A stretch of 32,000 nt of DNA from Candidatus Absconditicoccus praedator (GTDB lineage Bacteria > Patescibacteriota > Gracilibacteria > Absconditabacterales > Absconditicoccaceae): assembly GCF_021057185.1 (NCBI RefSeq), contig NZ_CP054059.1, forward strand, positions 720,001 through 752,000. Reading direction: 5' to 3'. Made by a program: the position numbers and the translations under genes. Below are positions 5,007-28,318 of this stretch, one piece after another (positions within the stretch are counted from its first letter, which is position 1; each line of letters begins with the position of its first letter). The notes beneath the pieces were generated by a model, which searched no databases, was not told the DNA's origin, and saw nothing but the letters and a program-made list of their open reading frames with translations.

Positions 5007-6524
<1,518 letters not shown>

Positions 6525-6527
6525 AAA

Positions 6528-6547
6528 CTGCTTTGCCTCTTTTAATT
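6528..6547 (-). repeat. 5' strand of the 16S processing stem
   Basis: It is the inverted repeat partner of 4954-4973 and lies inside the 66-nt 5S-16S spacer. Confidence 0.6.
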
Positions 6548-6555
6548 ACCACTAA

Positions 6556-6568
6556 TTTTAATGAACAC
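6556..6568 (-). promoter_or_regulatory. boxA-like motif GTGTTCATTAAAA in the 16S leader
   Basis: The minus strand reads gtGTTCATTAAaa. The same GTTCATTAA core recurs in the 23S leader (9770-9781). It partly resembles the boxA antitermination consensus TGCTCTTTAACAA. Confidence 0.35.
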
Positions 6569-6590
6569 TTAGACATACCATGCCTAATAT

Positions 6591-6709
6591 TGGTGGCATC
6601 AATTTACTTTCCCAGCCTCAGTGAGACCAGTATCATCAACCAACAAGATCTTAACTTCTGTGTTCGAAATGGGAACAGGTGTTTCCTCTTGCTGCATTGA
6701 TACCACCAG
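6591..6709 (-). rRNA. rrf: 5S ribosomal RNA (about 119 nt)
   Basis: The minus strand reads ctggtggtatcaatgcagcaagaggaaacacctgttcccatttcgaacacagaagttaag...gatgccaccaa. It has the conserved CCCAUxxCGAACxCAGAAGUUAAG block and a terminal helix (tggtggtatc / gatgccacca). Confidence 0.9.
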
Positions 6710-6790
6710 TATTAAACACAATGCTTTGTTTATAAGGATTTTTTCTTGTTTTTCAAGAAAAGATAGCTGATATTTTATATTTTTAAAAGA

Positions 6791-9745
<2,955 letters not shown>

Positions 9746-9781: not shown

Positions 9782-9802
9782 TCTCTTCAATGTGTAATAA
9801 CT

Positions 9803-9849
9803 AATATAATGATTTGTTTTTTGTTTTCAAGAGATTTTTAGACTTTTTT
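9803..9849 (-). promoter_or_regulatory. Proximal rRNA promoter (A-rich UP-like tract, -35 TTGAAA, 16-nt spacer, -10 TATATT)
   Basis: The minus strand reads AAAAAAGTCTAAAAATCTC-TTGAAA(9830-9825)-N16-TATATT(9808-9803). This is copy 1 of an exact 26-nt repeat (9824-9849). Confidence 0.55.
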
Positions 9850-9870
9850 ATTTTGTTCTCTTGTTTTAGA

Positions 9871-9898
9871 CAAAAATAAAAAGCAAATTTATTTTGCT
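9871..9898 (-). terminator. Weak terminator-like hairpin after murF
   Basis: The minus strand has agcaaa / tttgct (6 bp, 9882-9898) followed by a T-rich run (plus-strand A-run 9871-9881). The stem is AT-rich, so its strength is uncertain. Confidence 0.4.
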
Positions 9899-9929
9899 AG
9901 ATATTTTTTAATCTGTTAATGTAATATGT

Positions 9930-9976
9930 AATATAAAGATATAGTTTTATTTTTCAAGAGATTTTTAGACTTTTTT
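9930..9976 (-). promoter_or_regulatory. Distal copy of the rRNA promoter module, overlapping the murF stop codon
   Basis: This is exact 26-nt repeat copy 2 (9951-9976), with -35 TTGAAA (9957-9952), a 16-nt spacer and -10 TATATT (9935-9930). Confidence 0.45.
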
Positions 9977-11287
9977 CCAAAAAAATTCTTGTCTTGGCAG
10001 TTTTTGCCCATCCTCTTGGTTTTTTAATATTTTTTTTAATGCTTCTTCAAGAAAAATGCCGGTTTGACTTCACTTAAATAAAACCAAAAATTCTTCACTA
10101 TTTTTTTTCAAAAAGTTATTTAAATAATCTCATAAATCATAGGAATTTGCAAATAAAAATACATTTTGCATATCAAATCAAATCTTACTCAATTCATCAT
10201 AGGTAAAGCTTTTAGTATTTTCTCATAATAAGAATACATAATCTGCAAATCACAATATATAAGAAGCCATCAATCTGTGCTCCTGTTCTGAAAAATCTCC
10301 CAATTCTCTCATATCTCCAAAAACAAAAATTACAGAATGATTGGAATAAAATTTATCTTTTATATTAGCAGTATTGTTAATAACTTTTTTCGTACTTTCT
10401 GGTGAAGCATTATATGTAGAATCTATCAAAACAGATCAATTTATACCCTCAAATATTGAGAACCTACCTGGCTGTGAATAAACACTCAAACTTAAATCTC
10501 ACATTCATTCAACAACAGAATTATTATATCAAAAATTCCTATAGACTATATCTAATATTGCATATCACAATGTTATATATCATGCATTTTCTTTTCACAA
10601 AATATTAGTTGAAATATTTATATCCAAATTATTAATTTTTCATTTAAATTTTGAATTTATTTTACCATCTTCATAAACATAATCAAATTTTTCAAATCAA
10701 ATTTGAGCATTATCTTTACCTGTAGTTGTAAAATATATAATATCACAACCTACATTTAAGCTGTTTTTAGTGTATGAGTCATCATAATTCAAAAAAGAAA
10801 CATTTTTAGTGTTTTTTACAAGCTTAATTTTTTCTTCTGCAGTAACATCAGGACTTGAAAAATTTAAACAATGAACTTTATCTATTCAAGTAAATATTGA
10901 AATATCTGGCTTAACAACATCCAACAAAAAATCCATTTCACCTACCTCATCTATTCCATACTCTAAGAATAGCACATCATAACTTGGTTTTGAAAAGATA
11001 AAACTTCTTAAAACCCTTAATAAAATTTTAAGGAATCAAATTTTTGTAGGAACATAATCTGATATTTCAAAAATAGATAAACTTAATCAAAAACTTCAAT
11101 TATAGTTTTTTGGAGAAGTATAAATATTTATATCATTATCTGACAATATTTTTGAAATTATCATTCTACTTGTAGTTTTTCATATACTTCAAGTTACTCA
11201 TATCACAAAAACATCTTTTTTCTTTAAATGTATTTTTGCAAGTTTTCAAATAATATTAAAAAAACTTTTTTTTATCTTCTCTTTCAT
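9965..11287 (-). CDS. murF: Mur ligase family protein, UDP-MurNAc-tripeptide--D-Ala-D-Ala ligase (MurF)-like, 440 aa
   Basis: The P-loop is VIGVTGSIGKTTSR, with three Gly encoded by TGA. Further motifs are EYGIDEVGEM, LIDSTYNASPES and VFGDMRELG. The frame runs from ATG 11287 to TAA 9965-9967. Confidence 0.78.
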
Positions 11288-11314
11288 AAAGCAAGTAATT
11301 AATTCATATAAATA

Positions 11315-12190
11315 TTAAGTTAACTGTCTAATAACTTGATAAACTATTAGTAAAAACAAAAATATTAATATTACAACTAAGAATATAGCTTTTATTATAT
11401 TTTTTGCTTTGTTCCAAGCTTCTTCATCTCACCTGGATGTTATCAGCAATATTCAAGCATAAAAGATGGTAAGCAACAACAATCATCACAAAACATATCA
11501 TATAATTTGAGCAAAATCAATTAATAAACTAGCTGCTTCACTAACAAACTCATCTTGTTGTGCAATATAATAAACAAAATCTATCACCTTAATAAATATC
11601 AAAGCAATAATTACATTTAAAAATCATTTTTTTGCATTTGAAATTTTATCCTCACTATCGTATGCTTGAATAATTCTGTATCAGTAATAAAATATCATTA
11701 CTACTGCTGCAAAGAATGCTCAAGCTTTTAAAAATGCTAACACCTGAAACATCAAAGAGTCTTGAAATTCTGTAACCAAATCATCAGTTCACTGAACTGT
11801 TCATAAACTTAGAGCAGTTCAAAATATCCAAACTGAACCAAAAAACAAAAGTCATCAATAAAAAATATACAAAATATTCATTTTTGCTTTCTTAAGCTCT
11901 GATTCGTCATTTGCTTTCAATAAAAATTGAGCTCATGCCCACACTAAAAAAAATATAAATATTCACACTCATATAACTCTTAACACATTCCAAAGCTGTC
12001 ATCATCATTCATATGGTGAAAATAAGTTTCATATATTTTGCATCAAACTATTTTCTGCATCAACATTTAATTGATATGTTGTGTTTTCATATCAGTCTTC
12101 TGCTACTCCTTGAAAAGAAGGTGCTGCTAGAACAAATGATGATATCAAAAAAACTATCAAGGTAACAAACATAAATTTCAGTATTTTCAT
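11315..12190 (-). CDS. Secreted/membrane protein with three tandem VirB2/TrbC-like helical-hairpin modules, 291 aa
   Basis: A signal peptide (MKILKFMFVTLIVFLISSFVLAAP) is followed by three repeats of TM, short acidic loop, AK motif and TM: VWAGAQFLLKANDESELKKAKMNIL, IFYYGYRIIQAYDSEDKISNAKKGFL and IFYAGILLITSRGDEEAWNKAKNII. Confidence 0.6.
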
Positions 12191-12217
12191 TTTCCTTTTT
12201 TAGTTTTAAACTTTCAT

Positions 12218-12682
12218 TTAGGTAATATTAGCAAGAAGAGACATAACTAGTTGTATAATAACATAGAAACCAGTCATTATTAGAACTCAAACTCAAAGAT
12301 ACATAAGCCTTGTTTTTACCTTTTCCAAAACACTTTCATTCATTGAAGTTGTAACAAGCAATAATCAGTTGTATATAATAAGTATAACTGCTATACTAAG
12401 ACCAATAAATACAGCCCAATTTATATATGTTCAAATCTCCATCCTTACTCAGTCCAATGTTCATTCAACAGATCATCAGGGCTGTCTTTGAACATGATCA
12501 AGCTGGGTATCCTGAACACCCCTTCATTCTCTTACTTGATCTAAAACATCATTTGGAGAAGCATCTCTACTTCATCGTTTAACTGGTCACTGATCTCAAT
12601 CTCATCATTCCGCATACGAAAAAGATAACAAAGAAAAAGCTAACACAAAACAAAACAATATTAATTTATTCAACAAAAACAT
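12218..12682 (-). CDS. VirB2/TrbC-like pilin-type small membrane protein, 154 aa
   Basis: It has a signal peptide (MFLLNKLILFCFVLAFSLLSFSYA), a Gly/Asp-rich linker and one C-terminal TM-loop-TM hairpin (IIYNGLLLVTTSMNESVLEKVKTRLMYLGVGVLIM) matching the repeats of the neighbouring gene. Confidence 0.6.
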
Positions 12683-12744
12683 ATTTTTTTTTATTTATAA
12701 ATGCTTTAATAAAATATTACTAAAAAACTAAAAAAAATCAAGCA

Positions 12745-12790
12745 AAGAAAAAAAGCCTGTAGCATAAATAAATTACTACAGACTTTTTAT
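12745..12790 (-). terminator. Rho-independent terminator after dnaK
   Basis: The minus strand has gtctgtag / ctacaggc (8 bp, plus 12755-12783) followed by TTTTTTT (plus-strand A-run 12747-12754). It sits about 30 nt after the dnaK stop. Confidence 0.6.
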
Positions 12791-12814
12791 TACTAAATTT
12801 AAATATTTACATTT

Positions 12815-14728
<1,914 letters not shown>

Positions 14729-21766: not shown

Positions 21767-23401
21767 TTACTCTCTAGTATACACATACAAGTTGTACAAA
21801 AGGTATAAGAAAACAGAAATAAGCACAAACATAACAAAATTTAAAAATGGTCATACTTGCACTCTTTCTACATCTCATATTTGACTTCTTTCTCAATCTT
21901 CGCAATCAGCTTCAACTGCATACCAATTATAAGATACTTCTTCTGCATCAGGATCAAAAGGATATTTAAACTTTGTATCCTCTGTTTCAGCAACTTTTTC
22001 CATATCAGAGATAGAAGTAGTATCTCAATCTTCTGACATGTATACATTATATTTTTCTGCTCATTCTACCTCATCCCATACTAAATAATGATCATCTCAG
22101 TCTTTTTCAATCGACAACTCTATCCCACGAACTCTACAAGATGCTGCTCACATCATTCATCATTCCACAAATGAAACATCAGAATATACTCAAGTTTTAT
22201 CTTGCTGATCGTCCAACTCAAAAACTTTCACATAATAATCTTCTTCAAAATCAAATCATTCCAAAACAACTTCATTATCTTCTACTATCACTTCTTCTCT
22301 TTGGTCTTTGTCATTTAAATTATCCTGACTATCTGCATAAACTAATTTAAACTCTACATATTTTCAATCATAATTCCAGCTAAAATACATTTCATCTTCT
22401 TCTGGATATTGCTCATACCTAAAAGAAGAAATAGATCACTCTTGAGAAACAGACACACTATCAACCTCTTCAAAATTTGCTGACTCTCACTGATATATAG
22501 TTTCTACATGAACAGGAAAGGTTCACACTTCATCGATTGTAGCATCTACCTCAAAAAATCAATCTTCCACATTATTCATAGAATACTCACCAACTCAATC
22601 AATAGTTAGTTGCACATCTTCTATGTCTTCTCAAGTCTCTACTTGTACAGTCACAGTTTCACCCTCTTTAATTCATTCTTCTGGCGTGATTATAATATCT
22701 TTAAAATCCTCAAGCTCTTGCTCCTCATAATAAAAAGTAATAGTATCAGACTCAGCCATTGTGTCACCACCATCCATTAAAGATACATATACTTCATTTT
22801 CTCAATCAGTTAAACCATCTATATTAGTATCAAATCCTCAATCTGAATCAGTAGTTCATGACTCAACTAGATTTCAATTCAGATATATATCAAATTGAGT
22901 ATTAGGAGCATCTGTTTGTCATATAACTTCTAAAGAGTCATCATAATACTCATCACCTTCAGAAGGAGACAAAATATCTATATCCCATTCTTGATCATCT
23001 TCTTCAGAAAAAACTTCTACTTCTAATTTTCAATATACATCTTCATCAAACATATCTTCTACAACCAAGTCAAAATATCACTCATCTGTAATATCTGAAG
23101 TATCATGAAATTCAAGTCATCTATCAAAAACAACTTCTCACTGGTCTTCATCTGAGAATGTATAAATTCAGTCACTTGGAAAGCTTACATCATCCATTCA
23201 AGCATTTTCCACCATCATAAGAATATCTCCATTATAGTCTTGTACTACTTCTCATTGATCATCAACAGCTCTTACTGTCAAGTCTACCGACTCATTTACT
23301 CTTGGAGATTCTGGATCCAATTCTATTTCAAACTCCTCCACATAAGAATATGAAAAGCTTATACTAAATAAGAACACAATTAATAAGATTATTTTTTTCA
23401 T
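21767..23401 (-). CDS. Highly acidic cell-surface protein with signal peptide, beta-rich Ig-like repeats and C-terminal TM anchor, 544 aa
   Basis: The N-terminus is MKKIILLIVFLFSISFSYSY. The body is very rich in D/E with repeated beta-strand-like segments (VDLTVRAVDDQGEVV, GETVTVQVETGEDIEDVQLTIDG). The C-terminus is hydrophobic (PFLNFVMFVLISVFLYLLYNLYVY). The start and stop frames agree (1635 nt). Confidence 0.7.
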
Positions 23402-23426
23402 TTCTTTTTACTTATAAATTTAAATA

Positions 23427-23900
23427 TTATTTAGCTGATATTGATAATCTTTCTGTTGATCAATCGGTAAAATTTACAACAACATCTGAAAGAGTCACTT
23501 CTCAATCATCTCAGTCAAAAGGAAATGAAAAGATATTTTCTTCTGAACCAATCTCTCAAATATTTGTAAATATTAGCTTTTCTCATGCTCACTCTATATT
23601 AGCAGACGAGTAATCAAAATCAGAATCTATATTTAAATCTCAAACTTCAAGACCTTCATCATAATACAAATCAATACTTACAGAAGCAACTCTATCAAAA
23701 GAAGAATTTGCGTCTACATAAACCTCTCATTCTTCTATATAATATACTATGTCTCAACCATATTCTACCTGAGTATCTTCATCCACCAATATATCAGCTG
23801 TAAGAAGATCTGCCCTGTCTACTGCAAAAACTACAACAAAAGCAAGAACAAAAGCTGTGCTCAAGGCAAACAAATTTTCCTTAATATTTATTGTTTTCAT
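23427..23900 (-). CDS. Secreted acidic protein, 157 aa
   Basis: The signal/anchor is MKTINIKENLFALSTAFVLAFVVVFAV, followed by an acidic beta-rich domain (DLYYDEGLEVGDLNIDSDFDY...). It lies immediately upstream of the 544-aa acidic protein. Confidence 0.6.
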
Positions 23901-23977
23901 AAAAGAATATTAATTTTTAAATATAATCTCATTATAAAAACTTTATCAAAAAAAGCAAATATTATAGACTATGTAAA

Positions 23978-27916: not shown

Positions 27917-28318
27917 TTATCAAAAAAAGTTTGGGTTTAGCATATATAAGATCACTCATGAGGCTCACAATAGAAATATTCCAACTAAAACCCTTATAAT
28001 TAAATCCTTTCAGGTAGAAAAGGCTGACTGGTCTGCTCAAGACATAGTAATCATAACTCATCAGGCTACCAGCATAAAAAAACCAACAACGATAACAACT
28101 GTTACCAATATTTTAGTCATTCATCATATCAAAAAAGGAAATATTTCATCATCTTCAACATCACTCCCCTCTCATCAAATACAATTTCAAATAAAAGGAA
28201 CATGAGTGTTCAAACTAATTCAGTCACAATCATCTCACTCATCATCTCCATTTTCTGCATAAGCAAAATTGAAAGAAAACAATAGAATTGATATAAGAAG
28301 AAAAGTTATTTTTTTCAT
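27917..28318 (-). CDS. VirB2/TrbC-like pilin-type small membrane protein, 133 aa
   Basis: It has a signal peptide MKKITFLLISILLFSFNFAYA, an acidic Cys-containing linker (CDGISLNTHVPFIGNCI) and a TM-loop-TM hairpin FFMLVAGGVMITTMSGADQSAFSTGKDLIIRVLVGIFLL. Confidence 0.58.

What the first reader, a model, noticed from the sequence alone, without database searches (positions are those of the whole stretch)
11315..12682. Tandem VirB2/TrbC-like pilin-type genes, one with an internally triplicated hairpin module
Two adjacent secreted membrane proteins follow dnaK. The 154-aa protein has a signal peptide, a Gly/Asp-rich linker and one TM-loop-TM hairpin. The 291-aa protein has a signal peptide and three consecutive hairpins sharing the loop pattern aromatic-x-G-x-x-(L/I)(L/I)-x-(S/A)-x-x-D/E-E...(A)K-x-x-(I/L). 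The three copies are VWAGAQFLLKANDESELKKAKMNIL, IFYYGYRIIQAYDSEDKISNAKKGFL and IFYAGILLITSRGDEEAWNKAKNII. A signal peptide plus two hydrophobic helices joined by a short polar loop is the architecture of T4SS VirB2/TrbC pilins. A covalently triplicated version is not something I recognise as described. No VirB4, VirB6 or coupling ATPase is in this window. These could be subunits of a surface filament or cell-contact structure relevant to an episymbiotic lifestyle, or an unrelated membrane scaffold.
Basis: partly seen in the sequence, partly recalled or inferred. Interest (0 to 1): 0.68.

Follow-up and report, generated by a model that had tools for sequence, protein, structure and literature searches.

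The report
Fused three-hairpin secretion pilin pair
Two adjacent genes in a tiny predatory or epibiotic (SR1/Absconditabacteria-type) bacterium encode pilin-like membrane proteins of the type IV secretion family, one of them three pilin units fused into a single chain; pilin gene arrays like this are already known in these bacteria, and fused forms turn out to be common in databases but I found no paper that discusses them.

Summary
Read with UGA=Gly (code 25), the minus strand encodes a 154-aa protein A (12218-12682) and a 291-aa protein B (11315-12190) just downstream of dnaK. Both have signal peptides. A has one helix-loop-helix hairpin and B has three.

B scores above the Pfam gathering cutoff for PF18895 (T4SS_pilin) in three stretches. 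The three modules are homologous at profile level (E 5e-9 to 8e-8). A is a divergent relative of the same hairpin.

The A→B cassette is conserved in 69 of 74 Absconditabacterales loci. In about 25 of them a PrgI/VirB3-like gene lies just upstream. No VirB4 lies within 10 kb in any locus.

Tandem VirB2-like pilin arrays in Patescibacteria are already published. Covalent multi-hairpin pilins (2-11 hairpins) proved widespread in metagenomic proteins, including inside a seven-gene pilin array in a standard-code CPR genome. None of the papers I searched mentions them.

Verdict: this is a real, conserved, lineage-specific variant of a known kind. Family membership is solid. The link to a T4SS is moderately supported. 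Filament assembly is only inferred.

The parts
12218..12682 (-). Gene A: 154-aa mono-hairpin pilin-like protein (code 25, 14 UGA=Gly codons)
   Evidence: ORF under code 25. 17 homologues. hhalign against B modules gives probability 92-94 %. PF18895 is sub-threshold at 14.6 bits.
12611..12682 (-). A signal peptide (aa 1-24, MFLLNKLILFCFVLAFSLLSFSYA|E)
   Evidence: Sequence inspection. Helix 2-25 in the AF2 model.
12221..12439 (-). A hairpin (aa 82-154): TM helix, loop TSMNESVLEKVK, TM helix
   Evidence: AF2 helices 71-111/116-153. Local hairpin HMM E 3e-22.
11315..12190 (-). Gene B: 291-aa three-hairpin fused pilin (21 UGA=Gly codons)
   Evidence: PF18895 55.2 bits, 3 stretches. 52 homologues, nearly all 279-321 aa with two shorter fragments. 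78 species loci.
12122..12190 (-). B signal peptide (aa 1-23)
   Evidence: Sequence inspection. Family mean K+R 1.8 and KD 2.17.
11801..12007 (-). B module 1 (aa 62-130), loop KANDESELKKAK
   Evidence: AF2 helices 65-91/96-126. hhalign. HMM domain 67-131.
11555..11755 (-). B module 2 (aa 146-212), loop AYDSEDKISNAKK; the most conserved module, with invariant D204
   Evidence: AF2 helices 135-175/180-210. Conservation 0.64. Invariant columns.
11318..11527 (-). B module 3 (aa 222-291), loop SRGDEEAWNKAK
   Evidence: AF2 helices 215-251/256-290. hhalign.
27917..28318 (-). Gene C: 133-aa possible third pilin-like hairpin protein (weak)
   Evidence: Hairpin HMM E 3.4e-4. hhalign against the A family gives probability 74.6 %. 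TrbC PF04956 12 bits, E 0.25.
12815..14728 (-). dnaK, upstream neighbour (context only)
   Evidence: PDB DnaK E 1e-173. The dnaK-A-B order also occurs in L004, L006, L009-L011 and L073.
9965..11287 (-). Mur ligase (MurF-like) gene, 27 nt downstream of B (context; probably co-transcribed)
   Evidence: Pfam Mur_ligase_M and Mur_ligase_C. A Mur ligase lies downstream of B in 13 loci (about 10 after duplicates), within about 30 nt only in the closest relatives.

Best explanation
A and B are a co-transcribed pair of Sec-exported, VirB2-type (Pfam PF18895) pilin-family membrane proteins of an Absconditabacteria (SR1) bacterium that reads UGA as glycine. A carries one pilin hairpin. B is an ancient covalent concatenation of three pilin hairpins, each of which has since diverged and is separately conserved.

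Inferred topology: after signal-peptide cleavage the N-terminus is outside. Each hairpin dips into the membrane, with its short K/R-rich loop on the cytoplasmic side (the lumen-facing side in an assembled pilus). The two acidic linkers lie outside. This is what head-to-tail joined pilins would look like if they occupied neighbouring positions in a pilin lattice.

Inferred function: together with mono-pilin A, B is a structural subunit (pilus, conduit or its membrane-proximal base) of the Patescibacteria-type, monoderm-derived T4SS that is essential for epibiotic growth in Saccharibacteria.

What is shown: the gene structure, the recoding, family membership of B, the triplication, its conservation, and A-B linkage. 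What is inferred: the topology, the T4SS partnership and polymerisation.
For: Family: B scores 55.2 bits on PF18895 (GA 26.6), 3 stretches. 45 of 49 homologues hit PF18895, best E 1.6e-18, and 3 of 49 also hit TrbC/VirB2 PF04956. NCBIfam Mbov_0395 pilin-like conjugal transfer protein gives 28.6 bits in 3 stretches, below its cutoff.

Triplication: hhalign probability 94.5-95.9 %. The local hairpin HMM finds 3 domains in 81 of 83 B ORFs and 1 in A ORFs. Modules within one protein are 9-21 % identical, but the same module is 37-55 % identical across species, so the fusion is old and each position is constrained.

Topology: loops carry 3.1-3.8 K+R and are net positive. The N-terminal region and linkers are net -2.45, -1.69 and -0.73.

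Linkage: A lies immediately upstream of B on the same strand in 69 of 74 loci, median gap 26 nt. In the window the gaps are 27 nt (A-B) and 27 nt (B-Mur).

T4SS link: a 147-aa gene about 2 kb upstream in about 25 loci hits PrgI (the VirB3 equivalent) in 12 of 12 members, best E 1.5e-5. A VirD4/T4CP-like ATPase (TrwB_AAD_bind 23.4 bits, above GA 20.5) sits directly upstream of A-B in L059. Fused multi-hairpin pilins sit inside bona fide PF18895 pilin arrays in other CPR genomes (L085, L086). Published work places PF18895 pilins near virB4 in 1135 of 1948 assemblies and shows the pilin array is essential in Ca. Southlakia epibionticum (PMC12102498, PMC10633639).
Against: No VirB4, VirB6 or VirB8 was found within 10 kb of A-B in the window or in any of the 78 related loci.

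The immediate neighbours in the window are housekeeping genes (dnaK, Mur ligase, SbcC-like, MraY-like).

The PrgI hits are all below Pfam's gathering score, and the PrgI-like gene is absent from the window.

T4CP homologues are ubiquitous and possibly exapted in Patescibacteria (PMC12102498), so the L059 adjacency is weak.

No sequence or fold match to any solved pilin was obtained.

Module 2 has an invariant Asp and a near-invariant Lys inside a predicted TM helix. This is not expected of a plain filament subunit.

No T4SS pilus has been seen in any SR1 organism. TEM of Vampirococcus found no bridges to the host (PMC8080830).
Confidence: 0.6

Rival explanations
1. B is not a filament subunit. 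It is a stationary polytopic inner-membrane component of the T4SS, a pseudo-trimeric platform or channel that plays the role of VirB6/PrgH. That component is undetectable in this lineage. Mono-pilin A would be the polymerising subunit that docks on it.
For: B has six TM helices, like a polytopic translocon subunit. The three modules are individually conserved and non-equivalent, with an invariant intramembrane D204 and near-invariant K201 in module 2. VirB6 homologues are reported absent in the Gracilibacteria class (PMC12102498). The A:B pairing is strictly 1:1 and conserved.
Against: B has no sequence similarity to VirB6/TrbL/PrgH families (no hit at E<=1). In other CPR genomes, multi-hairpin proteins have variable copy number (2-11) and near-identical repeats (P0114, P0116, P0124). 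That looks like expandable pilin concatemers more than a fixed-stoichiometry channel.
Confidence: 0.2
2. A and B are T4SS-independent envelope proteins. In this reading the PF18895 hairpin is a generic small membrane module, used here as a membrane scaffold linked to cell-wall or envelope biogenesis.
For: The window synteny is dnaK-A-B-Mur ligase, with MraY-like, YceG and PrsW genes nearby. There is no VirB4 within 10 kb in 78 loci. The gene between the PrgI-like gene and A is a BatA-like VWA membrane protein with no known T4SS role. Helical hairpins are simple and hydrophobic, which can inflate HMM scores.
Against: dnaK is an upstream neighbour in only about 7 of the loci and a Mur ligase lies downstream in 13, and they flank A-B tightly only in the closest relatives, whereas A-B itself is conserved in 69 of 74. 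The hydrophilic loop motif, not only the TM segments, is conserved and aligned to PF18895. PrgI-like co-localisation occurs in about 25 loci. PF18895 proteins are encoded near virB4 in most Patescibacteria and are essential with the T4SS in the one tested species (PMC12102498, PMC10633639).
Confidence: 0.17
3. The three-hairpin protein is an artefact: three separate small pilin genes wrongly joined by reading UGA stops as sense codons.
For: UGA codons occur in the M1-M2 linker (aa 130 and 134). Fusion of tandem genes by stop read-through is a known gene-calling error.
Against: UGA=Gly holds across the window (31 of 34 dnaK UGAs align to Gly). UGA codons also sit at conserved glycines inside the helices (G86, G170, G246). 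The M2-M3 linker has no UGA at all. The linkers contain no start codons or signal peptides. The 3-module length is conserved in 49 of 49 homologues. Multi-hairpin fusions also exist in standard-code genomes, where the gene translates exactly under table 11 (L085, L086).
Confidence: 0.01

Closest known systems
Patescibacteria VirB2-like pilin arrays (Pfam PF18895 T4SS_pilin): the 'Sec-secreted array' of Ca. Nanosynbacter lyticus TM7x and the essential pilin cluster of Ca. Southlakia epibionticum ML1 (PMC7427843, PMC10633639, PMC12102498)
   Same: Same Pfam family. Small Sec-signal-peptide proteins with one TM-loop-TM hairpin. Two or more sequence-divergent paralogues in tandem. Chromosomal, in an epibiotic CPR lineage.
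   Different: One member is a covalent three-hairpin fusion. The pair is not next to virB4. In the window it is embedded among housekeeping genes. Only two genes, against 4-11 in the described arrays. The organism uses genetic code 25.
Classical T4SS pilins VirB2 (Agrobacterium), TrbC (RP4) and TraA (F), Pfam PF04956 clan
   Same: Architecture: leader peptide, two hydrophobic helices, short charged loop that faces the cytoplasm in the membrane and the lumen in the pilus, both termini outside. The adjacency of the termini in VirB2 and TrbC, which are cyclised head-to-tail (my own knowledge), makes head-to-tail concatenation geometrically plausible.
   Different: The window proteins do not match PF04956. 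There is no detectable similarity to solved pilins. The organism is a monoderm. Covalent multi-unit pilins are not known for any characterised T4SS.
Mycoplasma ICE 'Mbov_0395 family pilin-like conjugal transfer protein' (NCBIfam NF045849), MPF-FATA type
   Same: B matches it in three stretches and A in one (28.6 and 17 bits). It is a monoderm-type T4SS, the class from which Patescibacteria T4SSs are thought to derive.
   Different: Both scores are below the model cutoff (40 bits). There is no ICE context, relaxase or VirB4 nearby.
Multi-hairpin PF18895 proteins of other CPR lineages, e.g. PIT98131.1 of Ca. Andersenbacteria (527 aa, 6 hairpins)
   Same: Covalent concatenation of the same hairpin with the same loop motif. 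Located next to mono-hairpin pilin genes.
   Different: Those have variable copy number and often near-identical repeats, indicating recent amplification. The SR1 protein has a fixed three modules that diverged long ago (9-21 % identity) and are each conserved across at least 78 species.

Membership tests
Pfam PF18895 T4SS_pilin | HMM score at or above the gathering threshold (26.6 bits) | tested here: met
   B scores 55.2 bits, E 7.7e-15, in 3 stretches. 45 of 49 family members match, best E 1.6e-18.
Pfam PF18895 T4SS_pilin (protein A) | HMM score at or above the gathering threshold | tested here: not met
   A scores 14.6 bits, E 0.035. Only 5 of 17 homologues hit it weakly. Homology to the B modules is shown only by profile-profile comparison (probability 92-94 %), so A is a divergent relative, not a scored member.
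Classical TrbC/VirB2 (Pfam PF04956) | HMM match to PF04956 | tested here: not met
   No hit for A or B at E<=1. C scores 12 bits, E 0.25. 3 of 49 B homologues hit it, best E 2.8e-5.
T4SS VirB2-type pilin (architecture) | Cleavable leader plus two hydrophobic helices joined by a short polar loop, with both termini on the same (outer) side | tested here: met
   AF2 secondary structure. Hydropathy and charge distribution across 49 sequences fit the positive-inside rule. Signal-peptide cleavage was judged by inspection only.
T4SS VirB2-type pilin (context) | Encoded with, or in a genome that has, the VirB4 ATPase | tested here: inconclusive
   No VirB4 in the 32-kb window or within 10 kb in the 78 related loci. 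The source genome (1.13-Mb contig) could not be read. Literature reports VirB4 in 18 of 20 Patescibacteria classes, and the two JAEDAM01 genomes visible in Table S1 are 'Yes'.
T4SS VirB2-type pilin (context) | Co-localisation with other T4SS components (VirB3/PrgI, T4CP) | tested here: inconclusive
   A PrgI-like gene lies about 2 kb upstream in 23 loci and about 4.3 kb downstream in 2. 12 of 12 members hit PF12666, but all are below GA. A T4CP-like ATPase is adjacent in 1 locus. Neither is in the window.
T4SS VirB2-type pilin (structure) | Fold similarity to solved pilins (TraA, VirB2, TrwL) | tested here: inconclusive
   Foldseek against the PDB with the B and A models gave a best E of 0.6-1.3 and only generic helical hairpins. 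The B model has pTM 0.37 and the A model pLDDT 59.5. The method cannot discriminate alpha-hairpins.
T4SS VirB2-type pilin (function) | Polymerises into an extracellular pilus with VirB4-dependent extraction from the membrane | not testable with these tools
   Needs multimer modelling, cryo-ET or biochemistry.
Patescibacteria VirB2 arrays (Quinonero-Coronel et al. 2025) | Two or more pilin genes in tandem, or separated by one non-pilin gene | tested here: met
   A and B are adjacent on the same strand with a 27-nt gap, and this is conserved in 69 of 74 loci. By that paper's HMM criteria, A might not be scored as a pilin.
VirB6/TrbL/PrgH polytopic T4SS subunit | HMM match to PF04610 or related families | tested here: not met
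   No such hit for B at E<=1.

The most novel reading that the evidence does not exclude
Covalently concatenated VirB2-type pilins form an unrecognised class of T4SS component. This class would include the fixed, subfunctionalised three-hairpin protein of all SR1/Absconditabacteria and the 2-11-hairpin proteins scattered through the CPR (and possibly the Cys-rich proteins of unknown taxon). In SR1, the tri-pilin together with mono-pilin A would build a pseudo-heteromeric conduit or pilus base. That structure would substitute for the missing VirB6 and form the physical feeding or attachment channel between predator and prey. It would be encoded apart from the ATPase and expressed with housekeeping genes.
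Probability: 0.15. Interest if true: 0.8.

Novelty: new variant of a known kind. Interest (0 to 1): 0.5.

Why it matters
The Patescibacteria T4SS is the only T4SS known to be essential for the life of its bearer. It is also the only monoderm-type system with VirB2-like pilins, and what it builds or transports is unknown.

A pilin that evolution has fused into fixed three-unit chains, and into chains of variable length in other lineages, puts a hard geometric constraint on any model of that structure. Linked hairpins must be neighbours, with loops on one face and linkers on the other. This offers a natural handle for cross-linking-free structural work, epitope tagging in the external linkers, and AlphaFold-Multimer modelling.

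For SR1/Absconditabacteria, which include the cultivated predators Vampirococcus and Absconditicoccus and human oral taxa, A-B is a near-universal, unannotated surface or membrane gene pair. That makes it a candidate for the host-contact machinery.

A practical point: many public entries of these families are mistranslated, with UGA read as Trp.

Tried and rejected
(1) Table-11 ORF calling finds nothing in the region. This was resolved by using code 25.

(2) Foldseek of the B and A models against the PDB gave no significant or pilin hits. I judged this uninformative for simple alpha-hairpins, not negative evidence.

(3) HMMER profiles of the B family, the generic hairpin and the PrgI-like family against PDB sequences gave only chance-level hits.

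(4) The promoter and terminator scan of 9800-13000 found no more promoter-like sites than shuffles; two terminator-like sites (expected 0.4) lie inside coding regions. It is uninformative in 25 % GC DNA.

(5) Looking up the source contig by exact protein failed, because the source genome is not in that collection.

(6) My last homology search, with the PrgI-like profile, aimed to detect a copy in the window's own genome. It found 352 hits, but the 120 listed are all from the other subclade, so it is inconclusive for the source genome.

(7) The supplement of PMC12102498 is truncated in storage. No SR1 or Vampirococcus rows were retrievable.

(8) I searched for Walker-A ATPases of at least 400 aa in all 84 loci looking for VirB4. 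I found only FtsH, UvrA-like, ABC, a T2SSE/KH ATPase and one T4CP-like protein.

(9) The VirB6 identity of B is rejected on sequence, but I keep it as a functional rival.

(10) The stop-read-through artefact is rejected.
Full report
**1. Observation.** The region has no long ORFs under the standard bacterial code. The whole window behaves this way: it has 11 ORFs of at least 100 aa under table 11, against 63 when UGA is read as sense. I re-translated dnaK with X at every UGA codon and aligned it to solved DnaK. Of the 34 X positions, 31 fall on glycine, including the HSP70 signatures IDLGTTNS, DLGGGTFD and VLVGGSTR, and none falls on tryptophan. The organism therefore uses genetic code 25 (UGA=Gly), which is the code of Absconditabacteria (SR1) and Gracilibacteria.

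With that code the minus strand carries, 132 nt after dnaK, gene A (12218-12682, 154 aa). Gene B follows 27 nt later (11315-12190, 291 aa), and a Mur-ligase gene follows another 27 nt later.

**2. Anatomy.** Both proteins begin with a classical signal peptide: cleavage after SYA in A and after VLA in B, judged by inspection. AlphaFold2 with a 49-sequence alignment folds B into three helix-loop-helix hairpins at 65-91/96-126, 135-175/180-210 and 215-251/256-290. The mean pLDDT is 74.9, but pTM is 0.37, so how the hairpins pack against each other is not determined. A has a poorly predicted region of about 50 residues, followed by one hairpin at 71-111/116-153 (pLDDT 59.5). That region nevertheless contains invariant residues.

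Across the 49 B homologues, the three intra-hairpin loops carry 3.1-3.8 Lys+Arg and are net positive. The N-terminal region and the two inter-hairpin linkers are net acidic. By the positive-inside rule the loops are cytoplasmic and the linkers external. This is the topology expected if three VirB2-type pilins were joined head to tail.

**3. Is the triplication real?** Yes, on four lines of evidence:
- Pfam matches B in three separate stretches.
- Profile-profile comparison of the three module sub-alignments gives 94.5-95.9 % probability (E 8e-8 to 5e-9), with the loop motif in register.
- Nineteen modules and A hairpins align without a single internal gap. They share aromatic-x-G, an acidic turn and K-A-K.
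- An HMM built from that alignment finds exactly three domains in 81 of 83 B-family ORFs and one in every A-family ORF.

Within one protein the modules are only 9-21 % identical, whereas the same module is 37-55 % identical between species. The fusion therefore predates the radiation of the family, and each position is under its own constraint. Module 2 is the most conserved. It carries an invariant Asp (D204) and a near-invariant Lys (K201) inside its second helix, which I cannot explain.

The read-through artefact is excluded for these reasons:
- UGA codons sit at conserved glycines inside the helices.
- The M2-M3 linker contains no UGA.
- All 49 aligned homologues keep the three-module length.
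- Equivalent fusions occur in standard-code genomes.

**4. What family?** B scores 55.2 bits on Pfam PF18895 (T4SS_pilin; gathering threshold 26.6), and 45 of 49 homologues match it. Three homologues also touch the classical TrbC/VirB2 family. NCBIfam's Mycoplasma-ICE pilin-like conjugal transfer model matches B in three stretches, below its cutoff. A scores only 14.6 bits on PF18895, but at profile level it is homologous to each B module (92-94 %). B is therefore a scored member of the family, and A is a divergent relative. Neither sequence profiles nor Foldseek connect them to any solved pilin. For a bare alpha-hairpin that test has no power, so I record it as inconclusive.

**5. Distribution and context.** The B family has about 50 clusters at 90 % identity, nearly all 279-321 aa. 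It includes Ca. Vampirococcus lugosii at 60 % identity. A scan of species-representative genomes found it in 78 species, all SR1/Absconditabacterales-type MAGs, including human oral taxon HOT-345.

A lies immediately upstream of B on the same strand in 69 of the 74 loci with enough upstream DNA, with a median gap of 26 nt. In Vampirococcus the two genes are on different contigs. dnaK and the Mur ligase flank the pair tightly only in close relatives of the window (L004, L073).

In 23 loci the order is receiver-domain protein, a 147-aa membrane protein, a VWA-domain membrane protein, A, then B. In two more loci the 147-aa gene lies about 4 kb downstream of B. All 12 tested members of the 147-aa family hit PrgI (PF12666), the VirB3 equivalent of Gram-positive T4SSs. 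No other family is shared by all 12, but every score is below the gathering threshold. In one locus (L059) a VirD4/coupling-protein-like ATPase sits directly upstream of A-B.

No VirB4 was found within 10 kb in any locus, and the window contains no T4SS machinery. I could not read the source genome beyond the window.

**6. What is already known.**
- McLean et al. 2020 (PMC7427843) described arrays of small Sec-secreted proteins next to VirB4/VirB6 in Saccharibacteria and other CPR.
- Wang et al. 2023 (PMC10633639) showed that the T4SS and its pilin cluster are essential for epibiotic growth of Ca. Southlakia epibionticum.
- Quinonero-Coronel et al. 2025 (PMC12102498) used PF18895 and related profiles. 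They found VirB2-like pilins in 1,948 Patescibacteria assemblies and 441 arrays of 2-11 pilin genes. They also noted that in the Gracilibacteria class VirB3 and TrsD are not near virB4, and that VirB6 is undetectable.

The 'tandem pilin genes' half of the finding is therefore a new member of a published kind. None of these papers mentions pilins fused into one polypeptide, and neither does the 2025 T4SS nomenclature review (PMC12857230) or the Vampirococcus genome paper (PMC8080830).

**7. Is the fusion unique?** No. An exhaustive HMMER search of 1.84 billion representative proteins with the single-hairpin profile found 19,703 matches at E<=1e-3 and 631 at E<=1e-10. The best 150 are biased toward multi-copy proteins because scores add. 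Among them the hairpin counts are: 1 (1 protein), 2 (11), 3 (98), 4 (20), 5 (7), 6 (7), 7 (4), 8 (1) and 11 (1).

Inspection shows three groups:
- SR1 B-family orthologues.
- Clearly independent fusions, several with nearly identical repeats (P0114, P0116, P0124). One is a 6-hairpin 'hypothetical protein' of Ca. Andersenbacteria (PIT98131.1).
- Cys-rich proteins with long C-terminal domains, of unknown taxon.

In Andersenbacteria the 6-hairpin gene lies in the middle of an array of seven PF18895 genes. In another CPR contig an 8-hairpin gene is followed by a mono-hairpin pilin, a pilin-PKD fusion and a PKD-repeat protein. 'Fused multi-pilin next to mono-pilin' is therefore a recurrent CPR arrangement. 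It is present in databases with automatic Pfam labels but, as far as I could find, undiscussed.

**8. Mechanism.** Best explanation (confidence 0.6): A and B are co-transcribed, Sec-exported, VirB2-type pilin-family proteins that work with the Patescibacteria-type T4SS. B is a covalent three-unit pilin whose hairpins occupy neighbouring positions in whatever lattice the pilins form, and A is the single-unit partner.
- Shown: gene structure, code, family membership of B, ancient triplication, and A-B linkage.
- Inferred: topology (from charge bias), T4SS partnership (from family annotation, the PrgI-like and T4CP-like neighbours, and published data on other CPR), and polymerisation (no direct evidence).

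The main rival (0.2) is that B is a stationary polytopic platform that functionally replaces the missing VirB6. The non-equivalence of the modules and the intramembrane charged pair fit that reading. A T4SS-independent envelope role (0.17) fits the housekeeping neighbourhood, but not the conservation pattern or the PrgI link.

**9. Verdict.** The pair is a lineage-wide, previously unannotated SR1 version of the known Patescibacteria pilin arrays. Its distinctive feature is a fixed, ancient three-hairpin fusion, which is one instance of a widespread but apparently undescribed 'concatenated pilin' architecture. I rate it a new variant of a known kind, with interest 0.5. The fusion gives a useful structural constraint on an essential and mysterious machine, but function is untested and the architecture is not rare in sequence space.

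Noticed in passing
whole window; dnaK 12815-14728 (-): The genome uses genetic code 25. 31 of 34 UGA codons in the dnaK query align with Gly of solved DnaK and none with Trp. Several public database entries of the A and B families are translated with UGA=Trp (W where G belongs, e.g. P0003, P0054), so they are mistranslated.
   Followed up: yes
window 5007-9744 (-): The rRNA genes lie on the minus strand in the order 23S (9744-6791), 5S (6707-6591), 16S (6524-5007), not the canonical 16S-23S-5S. GC is about 50 % here against about 27 % elsewhere in the window.
   Followed up: no
window 27917-28318 (-): A third small protein, C (133 aa), has a signal peptide, an acidic/Gly-rich linker and one TM-loop-TM hairpin. 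It sits next to a YqeY-like gene and yidC. It is weakly related to the pilin hairpin (local HMM E 3.4e-4; hhalign against the A family 74.6 %; TrbC E 0.25).
   Followed up: partly
L033:7361-10879 and about 22 other loci (e.g. L039, L047, L012): A conserved cluster reads: receiver-domain protein -> 147-aa PrgI/VirB3-like membrane protein -> 321-aa VWA-domain membrane protein (BatA-like) -> A -> B. The PrgI-like family has 352 database hits at E<=0.001; the 120 listed are 52-71 % identical to the query.
   Followed up: partly
L059:6509-8980 (+): An 823-aa VirD4/coupling-protein-like ATPase with an N-terminal TM segment lies directly upstream of A-B-Mur ligase. This was seen in only one of the 78 species.
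   Followed up: partly
L085:8649-12991; L086:9925-16481: In other CPR genomes, fused pilins sit inside pilin arrays. In Ca. Andersenbacteria a 527-aa 6-hairpin protein is flanked by six PF18895 genes. Elsewhere an 820-aa 8-hairpin protein is followed by a 155-aa pilin, a 383-aa pilin-PKD fusion and a 718-aa PKD-repeat protein.
   Followed up: partly
proteins P0088, P0095, P0121, P0122, P0150, P0152, P0157, P0171: These Cys-rich proteins have 5-11 pilin-like hairpins (loop motif S-x-E/D-D-P) plus long Cys-rich or globular C-terminal domains. Their taxon is unknown (composition suggests possibly archaeal or DPANN-like), and their context was not examined.
   Followed up: no
window 11555-11620 (B residues 191-212): The second helix of module 2 (NVIIALIFIKVIDFVYYIAQQ) is the most conserved stretch of the B family. 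It has an invariant Asp (D204) and a near-invariant Lys (K201) inside a predicted transmembrane helix. This is unexplained.
   Followed up: no
window 21767-23407 (-) and 23427-23909 (-): A 544-aa extremely acidic secreted protein with a C-terminal TM anchor, and an adjacent 157-aa membrane-anchored acidic protein, have no Pfam match. They are candidate surface proteins of the epibiont.
   Followed up: no
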